Positions 15,840-26,692 of a DNA stretch of 64,000 nucleotides are shown one piece after another (the stretch's first letter is position 1; the number at the start of each line of letters is the position of its first letter). The notes beneath the pieces are model-generated. The model did no database searches, was not told the origin of the DNA, and saw only the letters and a list, made by a program, of their open reading frames with translations. The stretch comes from Pedosphaera sp. (GTDB lineage Bacteria; Verrucomicrobiota; Verrucomicrobiia; Limisphaerales; UBA9464): contig SIBK01000002.1 in the NCBI GenBank assembly GCA_009695205.1, positions 6,153 through 70,152 on the forward strand, written 5' to 3'. The translations under genes and the position numbers were made by a program.

Positions 15840-17151
15840 AGCCAGCCGTCAGCCCTCGCTTACCTTGTAGAGTCGATTCCAAAGGGGCTCGAGGATCTTC
15901 GCGGTACGCCGAACGTTCAATATACTGAGAACGTTTTGGCACGCCTCACCCGCGCCGCCTGCCAAACCATCGACCTGACAGCGATGTACTGAAGTCTGCT
16001 GCCGGACTCGTCATCCCCGGATGAGAAGGGCTTCACCGCCGAACAATTCGCCGCCATGGGAGCGGGAACCGGAAGCGAACCTAATGGATGCGTTGCAGGA
16101 CGCGGCCAAGCGCGGCGTCCGGATTCGGATTCTTCAAAGTCCTGGATTCGGGGGCGCCAGGCAGGAGTCGGACGACCTTCATGCAAAGTTCCCGGAGACC
16201 GTATCTCTCCATCCCATTCAAATGGGGGACTGGTATGGCGGCAGCGGCATCATGCACCAGAAGATTTGGGTGTTCGATGGGCAGCACGTTTATCTCGGCT
16301 CCGCCAACATGGATTGGAAGTCCATCATGCAGGTCAAGGAGATGGGGGTTGCAGCGGAGAATTGCCCGGAGCTGGCCGCCGCCGTCACCCGCTACTTCAA
16401 AGGCTGGGTGGTCTTCAGATCACAAACGCCGGAAAGTGTTCCCGTCTTTGATGAAGAGGTGCGCATTTTCCGGGGGTCCCGCGTTGGTCGCCGTTGGTTC
16501 CTGCTGCCGCTCGGGCTCCATCGCCGCTAGCTGACAGCAGGTTTAGCACGCCATACAATCACGAGACCCCGTTGCAAACGGAGCTGAACGGAAAATCCGC
16601 CGGCATGTACCTTACCGGTTGTCCCATCGAAATTCTCGGAGGTGGACGTACCTACGACGGCGCCGGGCTCGTCGATACCCTCAATGATGCCCGGAAGTCG
16701 ATCTCCATTAGCGTCATGGACTTCGGCCCCATCAGCCTGTATTCCCGTTCCAACGTCGGAATTCCGGAACCGCTCACCGAGTTCTCCCCTGCAGATTCGC
16801 CCGTCTGGTGGCCTGCCATTTTCAGCGCGCTTGTCTCCGCGGCGCTTACCCGGCAAGTCTACGTGCGCTTGCTCGTAAGCAAGTGGGCCCACACCTCCGG
16901 CCTCATCGAGCCATTTCTTCGTGCTCTCCTAATGGCCGCGGATGCCGGCAGGGCGGGTCGGATTATGACCGCCGGCCAGCTCGAAATCAAAGAGTTCATT
17001 ATTCCCGGCTGGAACGATACAGCCGGTTCATTCCGTAAGTATCCCGGACACAGCCGTGTCAATCACACCAAGTATATCGTTACGGACCGGCGCATCAATA
17101 TCGGCACGTCCAACATGACTTGGGACTACTTCTCGTCCGCCGCGGCAGCAG
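15840..17151 (+). pseudogene. PLD3/PLD4/poxvirus-K4-type two-HKD phospholipase-D-superfamily gene, decayed
   Basis: Across three frames the pieces are collinear with the PLD3 layout: LVESIPKGL...IDLTAMY[TGA where W is expected, 15990-15992], DAAKRGVRIRILQS, HQKIWVFDGQHVYLGSANMDWKS (HKD1, from 16255), YNHETPLQTELNGKSAGMYLTGCP...GRTYD...ARKSISISVMDF, and RVNHTKYIVTDRRINIGTSNMTWDYF (HKD2, from 17064). At least two frameshifts (about 16000-16080 and about 16490-16530), and the 3' end is cut by the IS relic at 17152. The N-terminus is not resolvable. Confidence 0.8.
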
Positions 17152-17821
17152 TGCGGAGGCCGGGACCTAAACCGTGCAAAACGACCGGTCTGAAAACCGT
17201 ACAGTTTTCTTCATGGATTTTCTTCAAACACTTCAACAGATCTCTTCTTCCTTCTTCCTGGATCTTCTTTGCCTGACCCGGCGGCTTTGAGCGCTAACCC
17301 GCTCTGGGCCATGCCGCCGTGATGGCCGGACACACCGTACGATTTGCCGGTGCGGTCGATATTGTGAACACCCTCACCACGGCTCAACTGGAACATCAGC
17401 TCAAAGCCGAGATGAAGAAGTACTTACAGCCCTCAATATTGGTGGTCAATGAGCTGGGATATCTGCCGATCGACAAGAACGGCGCAGACCTTTTGTTCCA
17501 AGTGATTAGTCACCGTTACGAACAAGGTTCGCTGATCCTGACTACCAATCAGCCGTATAAATCTTGGGCTAAAGTGTTCAACAACGATGCCACGCTGGCA
17601 TCGGCGGTGCTCGATCGGCTATTGCATCACGCTGAGAACGTGATCATCGAAGGCAAGAGCTACCGGATGAAGGACCAGATCGAGAATCCCGAATAAAGAA
17701 GATCACACCTCGGCGGGGGCGGCGAACCTAGCGTCGCCCTCGCCCATCTCAGAAATACCCCTCAATCACTGTGCGGTTTTCAAATCGGCACTTTCACACG
17801 GTTTTCAGACCGTCCTCCGCA
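17152..17821 (+). mobile_element. Internally deleted IS21-family element (ends plus the 3' half of istB only)
   Basis: Termini are 5'-TGCGGAGG...CCTCCGCA-3'. About 53-nt imperfect inverted repeats (17152-17204 vs 17769-17821) match at 38 of the 54 positions I aligned by hand. GAAAACCG-type sub-repeats sit at both ends (17167-17174 degenerate, 17192-17199; reverse complement at 17774-17781 and 17799-17806). A perfect 15-mer, CGGTCTGAAAACCGT (17186-17200), recurs as its reverse complement at 17798-17812. No istA and no obvious target-site duplication. Confidence 0.75.
17319..17696 (+). pseudogene. istB: istB (IS21 helper ATPase) C-terminal fragment
   Basis: LVVNELGYLPIDKNGADLLFQVISHRYEQGSLILTTNQPYKSWAKVFNNDATLASAVLDRLLHHAENVIIEGKSYRMKD is the conserved IstB C-terminal half. 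The Walker A region is missing and stops lie immediately upstream. Confidence 0.85.
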
Positions 17822-17822
17822 T

Positions 17823-18194
17823 GTTTCCAAGGACGAAGACAAGAAGCACGAGACCGACTGGGTGATCGTCGCCGATATCAACCGGATTGATAGCTAGTTC
17901 AAGCGTGGCGGTGGCGGAATTGCGTTTCAGAACAAGGAGTTGGCACGGAGCCTGCACAGCATCATACAGATGATTCCACCGCCCGAGGATGAAGTTGTGA
18001 TTGAAGCGAACGCGAAGAAGGCGGAAGCGGCCCGTAAGGCGAAAGCGGACGCCAAGAAGTCTGGGACGGGGCCGGCTACGAAGGCGAAAAAATCTGCGCC
18101 TGGGCCTATGTCTGGCAGCAAAACCAGCGGAGTCAAGAAAACAGCCGTTGGAGCACGAACGGCTGTGGGTCAGCCAGGTAAGACAGCCCGATGA
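17823..18194 (+). pseudogene. Unidentified gene remnant ending in a Lys/Ala-rich tail (tentative)
   Basis: A single frame reads VSKDEDKKHETDWVIVADINRIDS[TAG 17895-17897]FKRGGGGIAFQNKELARSLHSIIQMIPPPEDEVVIEANAKKAEAARKAKADAKKSGTGPATKAKKSAPG... It has no credible start, begins at the IS boundary and carries an in-frame amber codon. Confidence 0.3.
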
Positions 18195-18288: not shown

Positions 18289-19136
18289 CTACCAAGTGAC
18301 CGTCAAGAATAGTGGCTGTGCGGGACTCGGCGGCGGCGGGGAATTCTTTACGTAAGTTGTCAATGTGTATTTGTTGCCTGCCGTGACCGGAAAGGTAGCG
18401 GTGAATGGCTGGCACGCCACCTGAGTTATACTTTTGACGGCGACCACTCGGCATTCGTAGGCGGCGATGTGAAACCGGACCCATCAGTGATCGTGCAACT
18501 CGTGGATCCCGCCGGAGCAGTCCAGGTCAAGAGGCCAGTGCTCGGGTCCCTGAAACTCGCATACGCCGTGTAAGGGCCGGGATATACCCCTGACGTCCCA
18601 TTCCCGAAGCGTGGAGGAGCGCTAACGGTCACGGATGAGACGACCCCGGCGGCGATCGATTTTTTATTCACCTGCACTTCCGCAAAACGCGAGCATACCT
18701 GGAGGTCGCCGCAGACCGCAATGCACTGGTAGAAACCAGTCGATGCAAAAGTGACATGGTCCACCTTTAGAGTAGTGCTGGTCTCGCCCGGCAAAAATGT
18801 AGACCCCTGAAACCATTGATATTGGATCGGATTACCGCAGTCGGGGAACTTCGCAACAGCTTTCAGTTCGAGTTTCTTAGTGAGCTCGATGGAGTAATCG
18901 ATTGGTGGCTCCGAAAAATAGGGTGTGCTGGGCGCCTCCGGCCCGGACGGACACAAAACGCTGATCACCGAATACGACATTGAGCTCTGAGTAGGCCCAC
19001 TTTGCCGATCTTATTCCATGGCTGAGTGATGTCGCGTTTGGTTTCGACCGAGACCGTCTGCCTACACCCGCCTCCCGCGATTGCAAGCAACACGAGGGCG
19101 ACGAATGAAAAGGCAGGGGAGGTGTTGAGTTTTCAT
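18289..19136 (-). pseudogene. Lipoprotein with Ig-like domains, frameshifted remnant
   Basis: The ATG at 19136 is followed, after a 1-nt shift at an A4 run (19130-19133), by a lipoprotein signal FSFVALVLLAIAGGGC. The 184-aa ORF (18980-18426) has an Ig-type motif (STGFYQCIAV). A third frame continues with RFHIAAYECRVVAVKSITQVACQPFTATFPVTAGNKYTLTTYVKN, up to the TAG at 18289-18291. Confidence 0.5.
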
Positions 19137-19373
19137 GTGAGTCTTTCTAGCGACTCCTACTACTAAGCTGGCTAACAGTTTCGACCGATTTATCCCGCAC
19201 GACTTGATGATGTAATGCGTAATCCCCATATTTCCGACTTCTTACCACGGCTAATTCATCTGGAATTAGGCAGGAGGCAATGCGACTGCGAGCGCTGACG
19301 GAATCTAAAGAAAGCAATGGGGTCAGATCTATCCATTGGACCTATTGGAAACGACACATGGAATTTGAGGAGG

Positions 19374-22300
19374 TCAGCTTTTCACGCGGCCTGCGTGGGA
19401 AGACAGGGTGAAGGAAACGCATCCGCGCTTACTGTTCCGCGCCCACCAGCGCAAATGGAGCCCAGTAGCGCGGGTGTGAATAGCGAGGGTTGGCGCGGAG
19501 TTCCCGCATCGCAGTCCGCAGGGCGTGGGCTTTGTCGACCCTTCCACCAGATAGAGGCGATAAAATGCCTGCATCACCGTGATGGTGGCATCGTCGTCGA
19601 TGCTCCATTGACTCACGAGAACCGACCGGGCTCCGGCAATTAAGAACGCCCGACTCAAGCCGATAAGCCCGTCGCCAACGATCTTGCCGAGTCCTGTCTG
19701 ACACGCACTCAACGTCACGAGATCCGCCCGGAGCGGCAGGGTGAGCACGCGTCGAGCGGATAGGCGATCACCACATGAGGACGGGGCCAACAAAACGAAT
19801 GATTCCAAAGGGTCGTCCGCACGTGTGATTCCGTGCGTGGCCAAGTGAAAAATGCTGTAATGCGGAGCGTTTGTAACCACGGTCGCCAGGTCGGCAGATT
19901 TTCCAAGGAGCAGGGTGTGGTTGCTGGGCGAGAAGAACCGGTACACGATTTCAGCCTCCTTCTCAGCCCCTGGGAGCGGGTCAAAGCCAAAGCGGAATCG
20001 ATCGTTGTCGTTTGGACGCACTGCCGCAGGGATCGGATTGGCGATGATGAGGGCATTCCGGACCTTCTTTCTTGATGGGACATCCTCCGAGCGGACTTTC
20101 TCGAGCAGCGCTGCCGACGGCGCGTACAGTAGAGCGGCGCGGTCCGCGAGGCATTGGCCATCCTCCGCGATCAGAGCTGCGAATGGGAGCAACCAGAGGG
20201 CGCCATGAGGTTCGAGAGCCAGCAATGCTCCATCGCGGGGCAGCGCGTGATCCAGCGGTGCGATCAATAGCCGGTGGAGTCTCCGAAGCAAATCCTCGGG
20301 TGATTTTGCGCCGTCGGGTCCTGGCGCCGTTGACGCAGAGGGCTCCCGGCGCACACCGCGTGCCGCCCGGTCGACGTCAAGCGCGGCGCGGAGTTCCGCG
20401 ACGTCGTGCTCAATCTGAGGGCGCGAAATTTGAGCTACATGGCCCGTCACGGAGCCATCCGTAGAGATCGCGAACACGGCGGTCCGATCGGGAAGCCCAT
20501 AAAACACCAGACGCGCCACCGGAGGTGGAATCGATCGCGATCGCGCCGCGCCATCCGCAACCGGAACGATTGTTCCCCGCGGAACGGCAGCCGCGTTGGG
20601 GAAAGCAGGAGCGTTGGGGGGCAGCAAGAGCAGAGGCCCTTGACCAACGGGGGTTCCCGGAGCGGTCTGGCTCGGATCGAGCGTTGCGGCGGTCCGCCCC
20701 TTTGGGAACGTTGCGCCCTCGAGGCCACGGGGTGGCCAGCAACTCACTAACCCGAGCGCTTCCTCGGATGGACGCGCGTTTCGTCCCCAGCCCTGCATGA
20801 TATCCTTCAACGCCCGCCCACGCGCGTCCTCCGCCACCCCGAGCGGCGTGATCGAGATGCACCTCGATCAGCTGATCCACCACGTCCTGAGTTGTCTGGA
20901 GAAATGCAACTTTTCCCTCATCGGTACGCAAGTCGCGCTGTCGTGAGCCGATATAAACCAGACTTTGTTCGAGCGCCTCCGCCGCTTGCGCAAGCTTCCC
21001 GACGCGCTTGTGACACTGCCCAAGGCCCCAATAAACCAACCAGAGCGCCTCATGATCGTTTGCCCTTTTGCACAGTTCCAGCGCGCGCTCAAAGGATCTC
21101 CTGGCGCTCGGCACATCCCCGAGTTCCAGATCCAGACGCCCGAGCCCTGCGTACGCGCGACCTTCACCGAGCGCATCGTCGGCGCGTGCGGAAAGCACAA
21201 GGGCTTCGACATACAGGCTTCGCGCCTCGGTGGTGTGACCCCGGTCGCGTCGGATTCCGGCAAGCAGGGTCAGAGCACGGCGCTTCTCGAGCGGGTCGGC
21301 GTGCTGCTCCAAAAGCACGATGGCCTGAGCGAGCACGGGCTCCGCCGCGGCCGCATTGCCGGTTCGCCTCAGGATTTCACCGCTGTTCGCGAGCGCGTAC
21401 GCCTTGAGTTTGGGAGCCCGCTCGATCTCGGGGCGCGCCAAGGCCTGTTGATAGGCGTTCAGCGCCGGTCCGTCCTGCGGCTGGCGTAGGTAGGCATTAC
21501 CGATTTGTATCAGGATTCTTACCGCGAGGGCGGCATCCGCCTCGGCGGCCGCGAGCTCGCGCTCGGTTGCAGCGTCATAAACATCGGCCGGGGCGGAGCG
21601 TTCGCTCGGGATGAAGTCCTTGCGCACCGCGGCCAATTGGTTGAGCACCTCGCTCAAATTAAGGCGAGAGTCGCGCGCCAGCGCCCGGAAGCCGGACTCA
21701 TACGCGAGAACCGCATCCTGCACCCGGTTGTCCGCCTGCAAGACCTGGCCGAGACCGCTGCACAATACGGCCGTCAGTCGCGGCCGGTTCAGAGATCGTG
21801 CCTTTTCGATCGCCTGCTGCCGCGCGATGATCGACTCCCGAACCCGCCTAGCCGCCTCAGCCGCGGACGCGGAATGTTCGAGGGCCACGAACAACTCGGC
21901 ATCCTTGCCCTCCAGCTCCAGTGGCGTCGCGGAGACTCGCGGCACCGTTCCATCCCCGTCGAACGTTTCGCCGGGAAAGGTGGTGGAGAGCTCCACTTTG
22001 CCGTTCACGAGCCGTGCGGCCTGGAGCGTTGGTTGGTAGGTTCCAACTACGGGATGGAGGGTGTACCGATTTCTGAGGTACGCGTCATCGCGCTGGTGCG
22101 TTTCCACTCCGGCGTCGATCTCATGATGAAACGCGAGCGCGTTCTTCGCTTTCTCCGGATCAACATGGGGAATGCCCCGGGTTTCACCCACGCGCAACAA
22201 CTTGCCGTCGCCGGCGTCGTAGCACGGGTAACGTGGCAGCAACTGATAGACGGAAGTGAACGAGCGCAGGAGCTGGGAGAGGTCGACCAAATCGAGCGAA

Positions 22301-22964
22301 CCGACGCCGGCTGGGCAGCCATTGCTGAGAAAATTGAGAGCGTTCGGCGCACTGCGATACGGCGTGCCGAAGGTGATCAGCCTGTGCGTATCGCGCCAGC
22401 CGTCGAGGCACTCGATGAAGTAGCGCGACAGCAGCCCACCCATCGAGTGCGCCAACAACACGAGTTTCGCATCTGGGTTGCCCGAGCGGGCACGCCAGAG
22501 CTTGAGCCAAACCCGGTTCAGACGCGCCAGGCGCCGGGCGGCGACGCGATTGTCTCGCCGCCAATCGTAGGGAAACTCGAAGAAGTTCACACCGGCCTCG
22601 ACCTCGAACTCGCGCACGATATGGTTTCGAATCTTGCTGTAACCGTCGATCTTCCACAACCCGGGGAGTAGATGAACATCGTCGAACAGGCGGTCCGCAG
22701 TGATGCCATCGCCCGGGTCATCGACGTCGAAAGGATCCCGCGTCAGCTTGAGCGCTTCAAGGCTATGTCCCAGGGTTCTGAGAGCGCCCACACATCCCGG
22801 TCAGCCTTGCGCAAAACACTGCCACCGATGCCGGGAAGCAGTACGATAACGTCCTTCATGGGCTTGCGCGCGTCCGCGCGCGATGCGAGCGGCGTGAGAG
22901 CCAGCCCCGCGGTGATGCCGCCTGCGGCTGCCAGAAAACACCTCCGGTTTAGACTTATCTTCAT
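19374..22964 (-). pseudogene. Tat-signal / LCAT-like alpha-beta-hydrolase lipase / TPR array / CHAT protease gene, interrupted by two frameshifts
   Basis: Frame 1 (22964-22743): MKISLNRRCFLAAAGGITAGLALTPLASRADA...VIVLLPGIGGSV. Frame 2 (22791-20410): LLAHSMGGL, FDGDGTVPRVSA, then TPR-like repeats. Frame 3 (20837-19374): FHLATHGI...LVTLSACQTGLG...SVLVSQWSIDD (CHAT). The joins fall at G runs near 22787-22790 and 20837-20840. Confidence 0.75.
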
Positions 22965-23162
22965 AGGGTTCGATGGGCTCGAGTTCGTAACGGCGGCGGA
23001 AGGACGAAGGAAGAGGAGGGGGGAGACTCACATTGGCTCGTGATGAATCTGCTGATGCGCTGCGGCGATGAAGCGTTTGAAGCGCGGTTTCTTCACAAAG
23101 CCTTTGTGGCCAATATGTCAGATGGATAGACCGGACCCCATTGCCTCCCGGGCTGCCGAATT

Positions 23163-24098
23163 CTATCGCCTGCCCATTTTTTCACGGGCTGCTTCGAGTA
23201 TTTTTCGCTCGCGGTCGGTGAGGCTTTGGAGGCCGTGAGCGGCGATCTTTTCGAGGATAGGATCAACCTCGCGGGCAATAAAATCAGCCTCCGAGTGTTC
23301 GATCTGAGTGGGTGCTGGGGAGGTGGTCCAGCGAACCCCGGCGAGTGTTACAGCGGGGACGGGAGGCGAAGGTTTCAACTGGCCGCGTGAGTTTTCACCC
23401 GGAAGTACCCGCAAGTCGGGTCTTCTAAATTTTTCGCGAAGCCAAGTCCAAGGAGTTGCGGCGAATTCGTGGTGCCAGCCGAACTTCACCCATGCAATTC
23501 CAGCGAGGAGCCCCCCGAGGTGGGCACCATCCGCGACACCCATGTTGCGAGGAGACGGAACCAATATAAAGAACAGCGAGATCCCCAGCAGGATCCACAG
23601 AAACGTGATCGCCCGCATGGGAAAGATAAAATTCAGCCGGATAACAGTGTCCCGCTCCAGGAGGGCGAAGATGGCAATCAAACCGGCGACCCCAGCGGAG
23701 GCGCCGACTACCGCTGAGCCGTAAACCGTCGGAAACGCCTGCATCAGGGCTCCTTGAAATAACCCGCCGACCAGTCCGCACCCAAAGAACGCCACGAGCA
23801 TGCGCGTGGCGCCCATCACATTTTCCGCGTAACGGCCTACCCACCAGAAGGTAAGGACATTGCACAGGATGTGGATGAGGTTGCCGTGGAGAACTTGGAA
23901 AGAAATCAGCTGCCAGTACCAGTGGCGACGCAATCCGTAGTCCGTGAGGGCGAAGAGCGATTGTGCATCGGAGTGCACGTAGGCGTCGTCAATGCACTGA
24001 AGGGCGAAAACGGCAGCGAGGCCAATCGTTAGAACGGCCGTTGCGGTGATCGGAGGGCGGTAACCCGGCTCCCTCATGTATGGGCGGTCTGCCAGCAT
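23163..24098 (-). CDS. Rhomboid-family intramembrane serine protease with cytoplasmic C-terminal extension
   Basis: HGNLIHILCNVLTFWWVG, GASAGVAGLI (catalytic Ser), GAHLGGLLAG (catalytic His). The C-terminal tail is ...FIAREVDPILEKIAAHGLQSLTDRERKILEAA. I chose the ATG at 24098 to avoid a 47-nt overlap with the upstream gene. Confidence 0.8.
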   Translation of the reverse strand: MLADRPYMREPGYRPPITATAVLTIGLAAVFALQCIDDAYVHSDAQSLFALTDYGLRRHWYWQLISFQVLHGNLIHILCNVLTFWWVGRYAENVMGATRMLVAFFGCGLVGGLFQGALMQAFPTVYGSAVVGASAGVAGLIAIFALLERDTVIRLNFIFPMRAITFLWILLGISLFFILVPSPRNMGVADGAHLGGLLAGIAWVKFGWHHEFAATPWTWLREKFRRPDLRVLPGENSRGQLKPSPPVPAVTLAGVRWTTSPAPTQIEHSEADFIAREVDPILEKIAAHGLQSLTDRERKILEAAREKMGRR

Positions 24099-24180
24099 CG
24101 GGGAGTAACCTATCAGGAATTCTCGGAATTCAAAACCATCCTCGTGTGAGCGGAGTAGAATTAATGAGTACGCATGAGTT

Positions 24181-24870
24181 TCAGGCTCGGTTGACGGGAT
24201 TGCTGGGAGGGACGCTCGGGTCGTCACCGATTTCGAGCAGTTGCTGGGGTTTCAGCCAGTTTACGCACCAGAGACCGCCAACCAACCCCCCTAGGTGGGC
24301 GAGATGTGCCACGTTTCCCAGCGGAAAAATCACGCCGCCAATGCTGATCAATCCCGCTGCCAGCAGGAGGTACTTTGCCTTCAGTGTCACCGGGATAACG
24401 AAAAGGATGCGCGCCTGGATCCGATCCTCGGCGTATATCGCACCGAGCGCAGCGAGCAAACCGCAGAGGCCTGCCGATGCTCCGACAACCGGGTGGCCAA
24501 AGTATTTCTGGGACAAGGCGCCACCCAGGAGTTGGACCAGTCCGCCGAGGGCTCCGCTGACAAGGTAAAGAACCAGAAAGCGCCACCGTCCGAGCGTCGT
24601 CTCGAGAACAGGGCCGATTGAATCAAGGAACAAGATGTTCAAAATCAGGTGCGCGAATCCACCGTGCAGAAACTGGTAGGTGAGAAACTGCCACCAAGCT
24701 CCCGCTCGAACTCCCGCCAAACTCAACGCGAATTGCCGGCCGAATTCGTACTCCGCGCCTGGCGCAAGCCGGGCTTCATGGATGTAGACCATGAGGTTGA
24801 GCGCCACGAGGGCAAACGTGGCACTCCGCTGGATTGTCACCATTTCAGGCAGTGGGGCGGCGTCCGCCAT
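24181..24870 (-). CDS. Rhomboid-family intramembrane serine protease (short form)
   Basis: WWQFLTYQFLHGGFAHLILNILFL, GASAGLCGLLAA, AHLAHLGGLVGG. Confidence 0.8.
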   Translation of the reverse strand: MADAAPLPEMVTIQRSATFALVALNLMVYIHEARLAPGAEYEFGRQFALSLAGVRAGAWWQFLTYQFLHGGFAHLILNILFLDSIGPVLETTLGRWRFLVLYLVSGALGGLVQLLGGALSQKYFGHPVVGASAGLCGLLAALGAIYAEDRIQARILFVIPVTLKAKYLLLAAGLISIGGVIFPLGNVAHLAHLGGLVGGLWCVNWLKPQQLLEIGDDPSVPPSNPVNRA

Positions 24871-24961
24871 GCGCCGAGATTACCCCCCCCGCCGCCGAGC
24901 GCCAGCGTATCCATCGAGTCGGTTCGGCCGGATGGGTCCGCTTTAACCACCGAGTTTGGAG

Positions 24962-26692
24962 TCAGCCGAGGTTACCGATCTCGCCACGGACGTGCTCTAC
25001 CAGGGGGCCGAGTGTCTCGCGTGAGAAATCAAAACGGCAGCCCGCCCGCAAGAACAACTCTGGAAGCGGCCGGGAACCCCCCAACGCGAGGCCCGCTTTG
25101 TAGTCGCTCAAAGCCTTGCTGGGATCCTTCCGGAAATTAGCCCAGACCTGCAGCGCTCCCATCTGGGCAATGCCATACTCCACATAATAAAACGGGTAGA
25201 GAAAGATGTGCAGCTGCTTATGCCAAAGGTGGGTTCGTGTCGATTCGCAGCCGGACCAGTCGGTGTTTCCCCCAAAACGGTCGAAAATTCGGTTCCATGC
25301 TCCCGCACGTTCGGAACGGCTGTGGCCCGGATGAGTATATACCCAATGCTGAAATGCATCGACAGTGGCAATCCAGGGAAACCCCTCGAGGATGCCTTCG
25401 AGATGACCCCGGCGGGCCCGTGCGCTATCGGTCGCCGAGTAAAAAACATCGAGGTGGTCGTCCGCCAGAAGTTCCATGGCCATGGAGGCGACTTCGCAGA
25501 ACTCAATGGGCGCACTGCGGTAGGCGAAAAGATCTTCATCCCGCGTGGCGAGCGCGTGGAACGCGTGACCCGCTTCGTGCAAAATAGTCTCAATGTCCCG
25601 TCGCACACCGACGGCATTCATGAAGATGAACGGCATGCGCGCTTCGGCGAGGGTGGTTTGGTATCCTCCCGGCGCCTTCCCCTTGCGGTTTGCGAGATCG
25701 AGGAGCCGCAGGTGACGCAGGATTCCGAACTGCCCCCCCAGGTCCGTATCGAGTCGATCGAACAGTGTCTGAGTCATCGTTTCCATTTGGGAAACATCGC
25801 TGAAGGGGCGAAGCGGCGGACGGTTCAGGGGATCCACAGCGAGATCCCACGGTCGGAGCCGTTCGATCTTCAACCGTCGCGCCCGTTCGGCCTGGAGATG
25901 ACGGACAACGGGCATCACTTCCGTCTCGATCGACTGGTGAAACTGTTCGCAATCCCCCGGCGTGTAGTCAAACCGCCCTTTCGAACGAAACGAATAGTCG
26001 CGGTAGTTAGTGAATCCAGCATTGAGAGCAATTTGATGACGCAGTTTCACGAGCTGATCGAACAAATCTTCGAAGCGATCCTGCTCTCGTAAGCGGCATT
26101 CCGCGACGAGGCGCCACGCTTCCTCCCGAATTGCACGGTCGGTTTCCTCCTGATATCGGCTCATCGCCACCAGCGTCTTTTCCTCGCCGCGATAAGAAAC
26201 GGTCAAAGATCCTGACAACTTGTTGTAGTCATTTCCGATCCGTGCGTCCTGGGTTTCGAGGGCGATGTTTTCCTCGCGGAACAGTTCCACTCGAAGGGCT
26301 GTTTCACGGTGGAAGACTTCATACCGGTGGCGCGGAAGCTGGTTGCAGAGCGGATGTTCAAGATACCGCCGGGCAAGTTCAAACTGTCTCGGTTTCAGGC
26401 GAGGTTCAATTTCCTCCACAAAGTGAAGATATGCCTTCTCGGCGTCCGGGTTGTCCGTGTGGCATGTCATTGCGATGTGACGTTTCGCCCCTTCTTCCTC
26501 CGCCGCAGCGGAGAGTTCCCCCCAATCGAGAATCCATTGTTCGAACTGCTGCACGGTGCGCGCCTCTCCGGCCCGCGCGTCCAGACAATCGAACAAAGGA
26601 GCCAGTTGCGACCACTCACCAAGATCGGTCTCTGCAGGGATTAGATTTCGGGCGCGGTATGGCGGTAGATTTTTAAATGGCAGCAGCGACAT
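24962..26692 (-). CDS. pepF: M3B oligoendopeptidase F family metallopeptidase
   Basis: Zinc motif TILHEAGHAFH; size and collinearity are typical of PepF. Confidence 0.85.
   Translation of the reverse strand: MSLLPFKNLPPYRARNLIPAETDLGEWSQLAPLFDCLDARAGEARTVQQFEQWILDWGELSAAAEEEGAKRHIAMTCHTDNPDAEKAYLHFVEEIEPRLKPRQFELARRYLEHPLCNQLPRHRYEVFHRETALRVELFREENIALETQDARIGNDYNKLSGSLTVSYRGEEKTLVAMSRYQEETDRAIREEAWRLVAECRLREQDRFEDLFDQLVKLRHQIALNAGFTNYRDYSFRSKGRFDYTPGDCEQFHQSIETEVMPVVRHLQAERARRLKIERLRPWDLAVDPLNRPPLRPFSDVSQMETMTQTLFDRLDTDLGGQFGILRHLRLLDLANRKGKAPGGYQTTLAEARMPFIFMNAVGVRRDIETILHEAGHAFHALATRDEDLFAYRSAPIEFCEVASMAMELLADDHLDVFYSATDSARARRGHLEGILEGFPWIATVDAFQHWVYTHPGHSRSERAGAWNRIFDRFGGNTDWSGCESTRTHLWHKQLHIFLYPFYYVEYGIAQMGALQVWANFRKDPSKALSDYKAGLALGGSRPLPELFLRAGCRFDFSRETLGPLVEHVRGEIGNLG

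What the first reader, a model, noticed from the sequence alone, without database searches (positions are those of the whole stretch)
19374..22964. One roughly 1,200-codon gene combining a Tat signal, an LCAT-like lipase, a TPR array and a CHAT protease, broken at two G runs
Three overlapping minus-strand ORFs in different frames read as a single collinear protein. The N-terminus is a twin-arginine signal (MKISLNRRCFLAAAGG...ASRADA). An alpha/beta-hydrolase of the LCAT/PGAP1-like lipase type follows (VIVLLPGIGGSV, LLAHSMGGL nucleophile elbow, FDGDGTVP). Next come about 350 aa of TPR-like repeats, then a CHAT caspase-like core with the His/Cys dyad (FHLATHG, LSACQTG). TPR-CHAT proteins are an established family, including Csx29 of type III-E CRISPR systems. 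I do not recognise an architecture that adds a lipase head and a Tat export signal to the same chain. It suggests an exported, folded protease-lipase effector or a membrane-targeting suicide module. The reading frame needs +/-1 corrections near 22787-22790 and 20837-20840. The copy here is therefore dead, mis-assembled, or dependent on slippage.
Basis: partly seen in the sequence, partly recalled or inferred. Interest (0 to 1): 0.7.

Follow-up and report, generated by a model that had tools for sequence, protein, structure and literature searches.

The report
Decayed fusion of lipase and caspase-like protease genes
This stretch is a dead gene, made when a deletion welded together two neighbouring genes (an exported lipase and an exported caspase-like protease) and three more deletions broke the reading frame; the lasting point of interest is that such lipases sit next to caspase-like proteases in many bacteria.

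Summary
The gene is broken at three places, not two. The third break is at 19539-19541, and the true stop is 19429-19431.

Two breaks coincide with 8 and 10 residues that every homologue has, so they are deletions, not slips in G runs. Independent Logan and ENA assemblies carry the same lesions, so they are real.

No protein among 1.84 billion representatives spans both the lipase and the TPR half. The closest relatives encode them as two adjacent genes. One is a Tat-signal LCAT-like lipase of about 495 aa. The other is a signal-peptide TPR-CHAT protease of about 900 aa, 16-20 nt downstream.

The window copy is therefore an operon fused by a deletion of about 0.5 kb. That deletion removed the lipase C-terminal domain, the spacer and the protease signal peptide. 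The fused gene was then frameshifted and is a pseudogene.

Lipase plus CHAT on one chain is not new: hundreds of cytoplasmic LCAT-CHAT proteins exist. In at least 43 of 80 species-representative loci, the LCAT-like gene is fused to or directly flanked by a caspase-fold protease gene. This pairing appears uncharacterised and resembles protease-gasdermin pairs.

The parts
22869..22964 (-). Tat-type signal peptide, residues 1-32 of the conceptual protein (MKISLNRRCFLAAAGGITAGLALTPLASRADA). The twin arginines are at 22941-22946.
   Evidence: Sequence. TIGR01409 gives 15.3 bits against a cut-off of 16.7, E=0.02. It is homologous to the Tat leaders of P0122, P0124 and P0128. P0122 scores 20.8 bits on Pfam TAT_signal against a cut-off of 22.7.
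21883..22868 (-). LCAT-like alpha/beta-hydrolase (lipase/acyltransferase) domain, residues 33-361. It is interrupted by frame break 1. Ser174 is at 22444-22446 and Asp338 at 21952-21954. The lipase family's C-terminal domain of about 120 aa is missing.
   Evidence: Pfam LCAT 6e-14 and PGAP1 4e-4. It is 58-74% identical to the lipases P0121-P0128. The invariant columns S184, D348 and H377 of P0122 are kept. The family profile matches Group XV phospholipase A2 (4x90) at 1e-6.
22780..22791 (-). Frame break 1. The string GGCGCTCTC (22788-22780) reads as W-A-L-S in the upstream frame and G-A-L-R in the downstream frame. Eight residues present in all homologues (WALSGEGMLGAIR in P0121) are absent. 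I infer a 25-nt deletion between short direct repeats.
   Evidence: The same break is present in the Logan contig L097 and in an ENA contig.
21874..21888 (-). Gene-fusion junction (..ELFVA|LEHSAS..). Lipase homology ends here and TPR-CHAT homology starts at the equivalent of P0123 residue 30, just after its signal peptide. His364 (21874-21876) falls on the column of the lipase catalytic histidine.
   Evidence: BLASTP of the junction against P0121 and P0123, alignment A1 and the DNA. ENA gene calls of 508 and 571 aa run through the junction.
20842..21882 (-). TPR-like helical repeat region, residues 362 to about 709. The Pfam TPR hits lie at about 21501-20944.
   Evidence: TPR_12 1.1e-17, TPR_2 2e-13, TPR_MalT 1.1e-10. 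It is 45-60% identical to the N-terminal halves of TPR-CHAT proteins of 830-885 aa.
20830..20845 (-). Frame break 2 (..LDHAAR|VAEDARGRA..). Ten residues present in all 12 aligned TPR-CHAT homologues are absent. I infer a deletion of 29 or 32 nt.
   Evidence: The Logan contig L098 is identical here.
19432..20836 (-). Linker plus CHAT caspase-like protease domain, residues 710-1178. His1044 is at 19833-19835 and Cys1088 at 19701-19703. It is interrupted by frame break 3.
   Evidence: CHAT 1.5e-57 over profile positions 2-247, and profile positions 254-289 in the other frame. It is 46-55% identical to P0123 and to the L005 protease.
19536..19545 (-). After correction the C-terminus VDKAHALRTAMRELRANPRYSHPRYWAPFALVGAEQ aligns without gaps to all homologues.
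   Evidence: The Logan contig L098 is identical here.
19429..19431 (-). True stop codon of the conceptual gene. The stop at 19374-19376 ends only the out-of-frame tail.

Best explanation
The locus is a pseudogene derived from a two-gene cassette. In intact relatives, the first gene encodes an LCAT-like lipase/acyltransferase of about 495 aa with a twin-arginine leader. A second gene 16-20 nt downstream encodes a TPR-CHAT caspase-like protease of about 900 aa with its own signal peptide.

In this Pedosphaera MAG, a deletion of about 0.5 kb joined the two genes in frame. It removed the lipase C-terminal beta-rich domain, the spacer and the protease signal peptide. Three further deletions, of about 25 nt, about 29 or 32 nt, and 1 nt, then broke the frame. 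No full-length product can be made, and nothing indicates programmed slippage. These points are shown by sequence comparison.

The following is inferred. In intact relatives the two proteins work together outside the cytoplasm. The TPR-CHAT protease acts as the sensing or processing enzyme and the lipase as the membrane-active effector, possibly released by cleavage of its C-terminal domain. This would parallel the way caspase-like proteases activate bacterial gasdermins.
For: No protein spans both halves. All top-150 hits match either query residues 1 to about 310 or residues about 300-648.

The lipase and the TPR-CHAT protease are adjacent genes in L005-L008 (20-nt gap) and in L012 (16-nt gap). 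CHAT or TPR partners also flank Tat-type lipases in L013, L094 and L095. Those partners carry signal peptides.

The homology switch at A361|L362 is sharp.

Segments are missing exactly at breaks 1 and 2. The CHAT profile is split between frames at break 3.

The lesions are identical in independent assemblies. L097 is 99.92% identical to the window and L098 is 100% identical. ENA gene calls agree.

All other genes I scanned in the window outside 16-23 kb gave full or near-full Pfam profile coverage. The only other damaged genes lie next door: a split PLD gene and an IstB fragment.

For the inferred mechanism, at least 43 of 80 species-representative loci have the LCAT-like gene fused to, or directly flanked on the same strand by, a CHAT or Peptidase_C14 gene. 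One Tat-type lipase has a trypsin-like protease instead. The gasdermin precedent is preprint 10.1101/2021.06.07.447441.
Against: The window sequence is not an outlier at conserved columns (1 of about 60 changed in the lipase and 10 of 184 in TPR-CHAT). Decay must therefore be recent, and the order of the four deletions cannot be resolved.

The fusion is in frame, removes exactly one redundant signal peptide, and leaves a histidine on the catalytic column. These features hint that the fused gene may once have worked.

The independent assemblies probably draw on the same or sister read sets. I could not inspect reads.

The protease-activates-lipase mechanism rests only on gene neighbourhood and analogy. 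PADLOC has no model for either protein, and I found no paper on the pair.
Confidence: 0.8

Rival explanations
1. The fused single-chain protein (Tat signal, lipase, TPR, CHAT) was a working, selected gene in this lineage and was inactivated only recently by the three frameshifting deletions.
For: The junction is in frame within one continuous 793-codon ORF. It keeps one export signal and drops the other. A histidine occupies the invariant catalytic column, although the surrounding VALE..SA motif derives from the protease gene, whose homologues have S, N, A or K there. Conserved columns are as well kept as in functional homologues.
Against: No second example of the fusion exists in any searched collection. 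An in-frame outcome has a one-in-three chance. The lipase loses a C-terminal domain that all 100+ standalone and fused relatives keep. The locus carries three other deletions and lies beside other decayed genes.
Confidence: 0.3
2. The breaks are sequencing or assembly errors and the organism carries an intact gene.
For: The source is a MAG. Break 3 is a single base in a G run. A poly-G tract elsewhere in the window differs in length between assemblies.
Against: Three assemblies made separately (NCBI MAG, Logan contigs of two runs, ENA ERZ1305449) agree base for base across the breaks. Breaks 1 and 2 involve 8 and 10 missing codons, which homopolymer errors do not produce. The rest of the window outside 16-23 kb shows no broken genes among those scanned.
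Confidence: 0.05
3. Expression depends on programmed ribosomal frameshifting or transcriptional slippage at the G runs.
For: Two breaks lie at or next to GGG or GGGG.
Against: The runs are only 3-4 bases long. Three shifts in different directions would be needed. Conserved protein segments are physically absent at two of the sites. No homologue is organised this way.
Confidence: 0.02
4. The three ORFs are separate functional genes, as annotated in GenBank: a 73-aa hypothetical protein, a 793-aa 'TPR protein' and a 474-aa 'CHAT domain-containing protein'.
For: GenBank records MSU33644.1, MSU33643.1 and MSU33642.1.
Against: The 73-aa ORF holds only the leader and first strand of the lipase. ORF2 lacks that strand, and its last 140 or so residues are out-of-frame translation of the protease linker with no homology. 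The CHAT profile is cut at position 247 of 289.
Confidence: 0.03

Closest known systems
Two-gene cassette of a Tat-signal LCAT-like lipase plus a signal-peptide TPR-CHAT protease (P0122 with the 909-aa protein in L005-L008; L012, Casimicrobiaceae MAG). It is present in databases but uncharacterised.
   Same: The parts and their order are the same. The lipase half is 66% identical and the TPR-CHAT half 46-51% identical. The leader is of the same Tat type.
   Different: There the parts are two genes 16-20 nt apart. The lipase keeps its C-terminal domain of about 120 aa, and the protease has its own signal peptide. Here the parts are fused and frameshifted.
Single-chain LCAT-CHAT proteins of about 970-1100 aa (e.g. 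P0003, P0014; myxobacterial 'lipase/acyltransferase domain-containing protein' P0086)
   Same: An LCAT-like domain at the N-terminus and a CHAT domain at the C-terminus of one chain. The lipase domain is 45-58% identical.
   Different: They have no signal peptide and no TPR array, and carry a beta-rich middle region instead. Their CHAT domain is only distantly related (28% identity over 129 aa). They represent an independent fusion.
Stand-alone secreted TPR-CHAT proteases (P0002/P0123, 883-884 aa)
   Same: 55% identical across the whole TPR-CHAT part, collinear to the last residue.
   Different: They carry their own Sec-type signal and have no lipase domain or lipase neighbour.
Bacterial gasdermin plus caspase-like protease operons (preprint 10.1101/2021.06.07.447441)
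   Same: A CHAT or Peptidase_C14 protease, often with TPR, WD40 or NACHT modules, is encoded next to a membrane-damaging effector. The protease class varies between loci.
   Different: The effector here is an alpha/beta-hydrolase lipase, not a gasdermin. The subfamily in the window is exported. Cleavage-dependent activation is untested.
Csx29 (TPR-CHAT) of type III-E CRISPR-Cas
   Same: TPR plus CHAT domain order.
   Different: NF041237 scores 19.5 bits against a cut-off of 300. There is no CRISPR-like repeat array in the window, none of the neighbouring genes I scanned is a cas gene, and the relatives here are exported.
Tat-exported phospholipases such as Pseudomonas aeruginosa PlcH/PlcN (from my own knowledge, not checked here)
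   Same: A folded lipolytic enzyme carried across the inner membrane by a twin-arginine leader.
   Different: They belong to an unrelated enzyme family (phospholipase C) and have no protease partner.

Membership tests
LCAT-like alpha/beta-hydrolases (Pfam PF02450) | Profile match above the curated cut-off | tested here: met
   52.5 bits against a cut-off of 21, E=6e-14.
LCAT-like alpha/beta-hydrolases (Pfam PF02450) | Ser-Asp-His catalytic triad at the family's conserved positions | tested here: met
   S174 (AHSMGG), D338 (GDGTVP) and H364 fall on invariant columns S184, D348 and H377 of alignment A1. The histidine lies within the fusion junction, so whether its structural position is correct is untested.
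LCAT-like alpha/beta-hydrolases (Pfam PF02450) | Lipase or acyltransferase activity | not testable with these tools
   Needs biochemistry. The single-sequence AlphaFold model was unusable (pLDDT 34.6).
CHAT caspase-like proteases (Pfam PF12770) | Profile match and His/Cys dyad | tested here: met
   195.7 bits, E=1.5e-57. H1044 in ATHG and C1088 in SACQTG are conserved in all aligned homologues.
CHAT caspase-like proteases (Pfam PF12770) | Complete domain in one reading frame | tested here: not met
   Profile positions 2-247 lie in ORF3 and positions 254-289 in another frame.
Tat (twin-arginine) substrates | S/T-R-R-x-F-L-K-type motif, hydrophobic region and AxA cleavage site, recognised by the curated models | tested here: inconclusive
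   NRRCFLA, a hydrophobic stretch and ADA are present. TIGR01409 gives 15.3 bits, below the 16.7 cut-off. The homologous leader of P0122 gives 20.8 bits against 22.7 on PF10518. Export itself is not testable here.
Csx29 / type III-E Craspase | Match to NF041237 above its cut-off, and a gRAMP/Cas7-11 and CRISPR neighbourhood | tested here: not met
   19.5 bits against 300. No repeat arrays. The neighbours I scanned are rhomboids, an M3 peptidase, a PLD fragment and an IstB fragment.
Single-chain LCAT-CHAT family (about 970 aa) | LCAT domain, beta-rich middle region and the family's own CHAT domain, with no signal peptide | tested here: not met
   Only the lipase part aligns well (28% query coverage). 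The middle region is absent. The CHAT domains are 28% identical over 129 aa.
Lipase/TPR-CHAT two-gene cassette | Separate lipase and protease genes, each with its own export signal | tested here: not met
   The window has one continuous frame across the junction and lacks the lipase C-terminal domain and the protease signal peptide. It is a derivative of the cassette, not an intact member.
Pseudogene | Frame-breaking lesions relative to intact homologues, reproducible in the DNA | tested here: met
   Three breaks, identical in independent assemblies.
Protease-activated membrane effector systems (gasdermin-like logic) | Effector gene adjacent to a caspase-like protease gene across many taxa | tested here: met
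   At least 43 of 80 loci.
Protease-activated membrane effector systems (gasdermin-like logic) | Effector is activated by proteolytic removal of an inhibitory segment | not testable with these tools
   Inference only.

The most novel reading that the evidence does not exclude
LCAT-like lipases may be a widespread, so far undescribed class of effectors partnered with caspase-fold proteases (CHAT, Peptidase_C14, occasionally trypsin-like). They would be analogous to gasdermins and exist in both cytoplasmic and envelope-exported (Tat/Sec) versions. On this reading, the Pedosphaera copy records a short-lived single-chain exported version in which a catalytic histidine was re-created at the fusion junction before the gene decayed.
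Probability: 0.3. Interest if true: 0.65.

Novelty: new variant of a known kind. Interest (0 to 1): 0.38.

Why it matters
The window copy is a dead gene, so by itself it matters little. It mainly warns that an unusual multidomain architecture in a MAG can be a by-product of deletional decay of an operon.

The survey around it has wider value. LCAT-like lipase genes are fused to, or directly flanked by, caspase-fold protease genes in more than half of 80 species-representative loci across many phyla. I found no publication on this pairing. If the protease controls the lipase, this would add a lipid-hydrolysing effector to the caspase-gasdermin type of bacterial cell-death or conflict modules. 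It would also include a version that acts in the cell envelope.

Tried and rejected
- **Structure prediction.** A single-sequence AlphaFold2 model of the lipase-TPR junction was unusable (pLDDT 34.6). The position of His364 in the triad could not be examined, and the tool returns no coordinates in any case.
- **Locating the source contig.** The look-up of encoding contigs with the annotated ORF2 protein found nothing. The independent contigs were reached through the 73-aa ORF and a 358-aa form of ORF3 instead.
- **Defence-system models.** PADLOC gave only generic TPR hits.
- **Solved structures.** phmmer of the CHAT part against PDB sequences gave nothing at E<=0.01.
- **Literature.** Five searches for LCAT together with CHAT, or for protease-lipase pairs, found no paper on the pairing.
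- **Gene finding.** A simple codon-usage log-odds scan could not separate genes from antisense shadows well enough to find frameshifts. I used Pfam coverage of suspect ORF pairs instead.
- **Plus-strand ORFs.** The ORFs overlapping the gene on the plus strand (21505-22671, 20965-21489, 20892-21407) have no Pfam match and are treated as shadows.
- **Relaxed selection.** A test at conserved columns showed no excess of changes. Long-standing decay is rejected.
- **CRISPR association.** No repeat arrays were found.
Full report
**What is in the sequence**

- Pfam finds LCAT (6e-14) and several TPR families (TPR_12 at 1.1e-17) in the middle ORF, and CHAT (1.5e-57) in the last.
- NCBIfam gives only a far sub-threshold Csx29 match, 19.5 bits against a cut-off of 300.
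- The first ORF starts MKISLNRRCFLAAAGG...ASRADA. It scores 15.3 bits on the Tat-signal model TIGR01409, whose cut-off is 16.7.
- Plus-strand ORFs over the same DNA have no family match.

**A third break**

The C-terminus of ORF3 looks like out-of-frame sequence. A fourth frame (ORF 19704..19429) encodes ...VDKAHALRTAMRELRANPRYSHPRYWAPFALVGAEQ, the canonical end of CHAT proteins.

Pfam places CHAT profile positions 2-247 in ORF3 and positions 254-289 in this other frame. With one base added at 22787, one removed in 20837-20840 and one added at 19539, a 1178-aa protein results with its stop at 19429-19431.

**Source and annotation**

ORF2 is identical to GenBank MSU33643.1, 'MAG: tetratricopeptide repeat protein [Pedosphaera sp.]', on a 127.8-kb contig. 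The 73-aa ORF is MSU33644.1. A 474-aa form of ORF3 is MSU33642.1, 'CHAT domain-containing protein'.

**Are the breaks real?**

Independent assemblies carry them.
- Logan contig L097 (run SRR8561391) matches window 22510-26261 at 99.92% and contains break 1. Its only differences are a poly-G length and one SNP elsewhere.
- Logan contig L098 (run SRR8561390) is 100% identical to 19048-21767 and contains breaks 2 and 3.
- Two contigs of ENA assembly ERZ1305449 have gene calls of 508 and 571 aa in the ORF2 frame that run through the fusion junction.

Two breaks are not single-base events.
- **Break 1.** All lipase homologues read VWALSGxxxLxxxRTLG, but the window reads VWAL / (G)ALRTLG and lacks 8 residues. 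The string GGCGCTCTC serves both frames. This fits a 25-nt deletion between short direct repeats (the repeat mechanism is my inference).
- **Break 2.** All 12 aligned TPR-CHAT homologues have 10-12 residues between ..LDRA.. and ..VAE.ARG.. that the window lacks.
- **Break 3.** This is a one-base loss. The corrected C-terminus aligns without gaps.

All other genes I scanned outside 16-23 kb (MoaA-like, IspH, KsgA, SOD, signal peptidase, an ECF sigma factor, an M3 peptidase, two rhomboids and others) gave full or near-full profile coverage. The only other damaged genes are next door: a PLD-family gene split at 16021-16530 / 16494-17276, and an IstB fragment covering profile positions 111-236 of 238. 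Lesions are therefore clustered in an accessory patch, not spread as sequencing noise would be.

**The architecture is a fusion of two genes**

I ran an exhaustive phmmer search of the clean lipase+TPR part (649 aa) against 1.84 billion representatives. It returned 16,006 hits, but none of the best 150 covers both halves. They match either residues 1 to about 310 or residues about 300-648.
- The lipase hits are proteins of about 450-500 aa. Where the N-terminus is complete, the closest ones carry Tat leaders: P0122 (MRTTRRSFLKTAG..), P0124 and P0128. They also have a C-terminal beta-rich domain of about 120 aa that the window lacks.
- The TPR hits are TPR-CHAT proteins of 830-885 aa, many with Sec-type signals.

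The homology switch is sharp. Lipase similarity ends at ..ELFVA. TPR-CHAT similarity begins at VALEHSAS.., equivalent to residue 30 of P0123 and just past its signal peptide.

The gene for P0122 (66% identical) lies 20 nt upstream of a separate gene in four metagenome contigs (L005-L008). That gene encodes a 909-aa TPR-CHAT protein with a signal peptide, 46-51% identical to the window. The same pair occurs in a Casimicrobiaceae MAG, L012, with a 16-nt gap. Other Tat-type lipases have CHAT partners upstream (L013, L095) or Sel1/TPR plus CHAT genes downstream (L094). Those partners also carry signal peptides.

No fused relative appeared in the 5.8-billion-cluster search or in JGI metagenome contigs queried with a junction-spanning peptide.

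The simplest history is a deletion of about 0.5 kb. It ran from just after the lipase catalytic histidine region to just after the protease signal peptide, at a shared Val-Ala.

**Was the fusion ever functional?**

This cannot be decided. Four points favour it:
- The junction is in frame.
- Exactly one export signal is kept.
- A histidine sits on the invariant catalytic column, although the flanking VALE..SA motif comes from the protease gene.
- The window sequence is no more deviant at conserved columns than functional homologues are: 1 of about 60 and 10 of 184.

Four points count against it:
- The fusion is unique.
- An in-frame outcome has a one-in-three chance.
- The lipase loses a domain that all relatives keep.
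- The locus has three more deletions.

I put about 0.3 on a once-functional fusion.

**How common is lipase plus caspase-like protease?**

LCAT and CHAT on one chain is frequent. More than 100 clusters of about 970-1100 aa lack a signal peptide and a TPR array, and some are named by NCBI or JGI.

A scan of 185,579 species-representative genomes found 270 loci with relatives of the lipase. I analysed the best 80.
- Six are fused to CHAT.
- Of 43 tightly coupled downstream neighbours, 13 carry CHAT and 10 carry Peptidase_C14.
- Of 38 upstream neighbours, 9 carry CHAT and 15 carry Peptidase_C14. A few carry NACHT or STAND NTPase domains.
- By clustering, at least 43 of 80 loci have a caspase-fold protease fused to or adjacent to the lipase gene.
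- One Tat-type lipase (P0124) has a trypsin-like protease (..GMSGGP..) instead.

This pattern, a membrane-active effector beside a caspase-like protease of varying class that is often joined to repeat or NTPase sensors, is what was reported for bacterial gasdermins. There, 43 of 50 genes lie next to proteases, mostly C14 or CHAT, and the protease removes a C-terminal inhibitory segment (preprint 10.1101/2021.06.07.447441).

PADLOC has no model for these proteins, and I found no paper on the pairing.

**Mechanism**

Shown by sequence comparison:
- The window gene cannot yield a full-length protein.
- It derives from a lipase/TPR-CHAT gene pair.

Inferred:
- In intact cassettes both proteins are exported, the lipase by Tat and the protease by Sec, and act together.
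- The protease most likely processes or gates the lipase, whose C-terminal domain is a candidate inhibitory segment.

I give the pseudogene-of-an-operon reading 0.8 and the protease-activates-lipase model about 0.3.

**Verdict**

The 'novel architecture' is a decay product, and the lipase-CHAT combination as such is common. The copy is a pseudogene. The wider lipase/caspase-fold-protease association is the part worth following up.

Noticed in passing
window 16021-17276 (+): A PLD-family gene with two HKD-type domains is split into two overlapping ORFs (169 and 260 aa), with the frame change near a T4/G5 run at about 16465-16476. Its C-terminal tail has no PLD similarity. Both fragments are also present in an independent ENA/Logan contig, so this is probably a second pseudogene.
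   Followed up: partly
window 17298-17696 (+): A fragment of an IS21-family IstB helper protein (Pfam profile positions 111-236 of 238) directly abuts the end of the PLD gene. It is a remnant of an insertion sequence beside the decayed genes.
   Followed up: partly
window 24882-24889 (minus strand), about 12 nt upstream of the ATG of the rhomboid gene 24181-24870: A poly-G tract is 8 bases long in the window and 10 bases long in the otherwise near-identical Logan contig L097. The length variation sits at the ribosome-binding position. It may be phase variation or homopolymer miscalling.
   Followed up: no
window 23163-24227 and 24181-24870 (-): Two tandem rhomboid-family genes lie immediately upstream of the broken gene. 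The second carries a DUF6576 C-terminal domain.
   Followed up: no
window 18426-18980 (-): A 184-aa ORF just downstream of the CHAT end has no Pfam match. It is called as a gene in the ENA contig too. Its function is unknown.
   Followed up: no
window 17940-18194 (+): An 84-aa Lys/Ala-rich ORF (..AKKAEAARKAKADAKKSGTGPATKAKK..), histone-H1-like in composition, has no Pfam match.
   Followed up: no
L020, L022, L029, L043, L045, L061, L071 (genome loci): A recurrent cassette in Actinomycetota and Gaiellaceae MAGs: an LCAT-like lipase followed by a conserved protein of about 810 aa whose start overlaps or abuts the lipase stop. A small protein of about 280-300 aa, probably Peptidase_C14, lies upstream in six of the seven loci (none was found for L061). 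The 810-aa family probably accounts for the downstream C14 hits.
   Followed up: partly
L092 3-1001: The gene upstream of the Tat-type lipase P0124, overlapping its start by 4 nt, encodes a trypsin-like serine protease motif (SGMSGGPV) plus a helical C-terminal region instead of a CHAT protease.
   Followed up: partly
L005, L007, L008 (flanks): IS110-family transposase genes (DEDD_Tnp_IS110 / Transposase_20) flank the intact lipase/TPR-CHAT cassette on these three contigs, which suggests the cassette is mobile.
   Followed up: no
L094 7604-9798: In a 4x-coverage long-read contig, the TPR and CHAT parts downstream of the lipase are called as two overlapping genes (252 and 489 aa). This may be another frameshift or a read-error artefact.
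   Followed up: no
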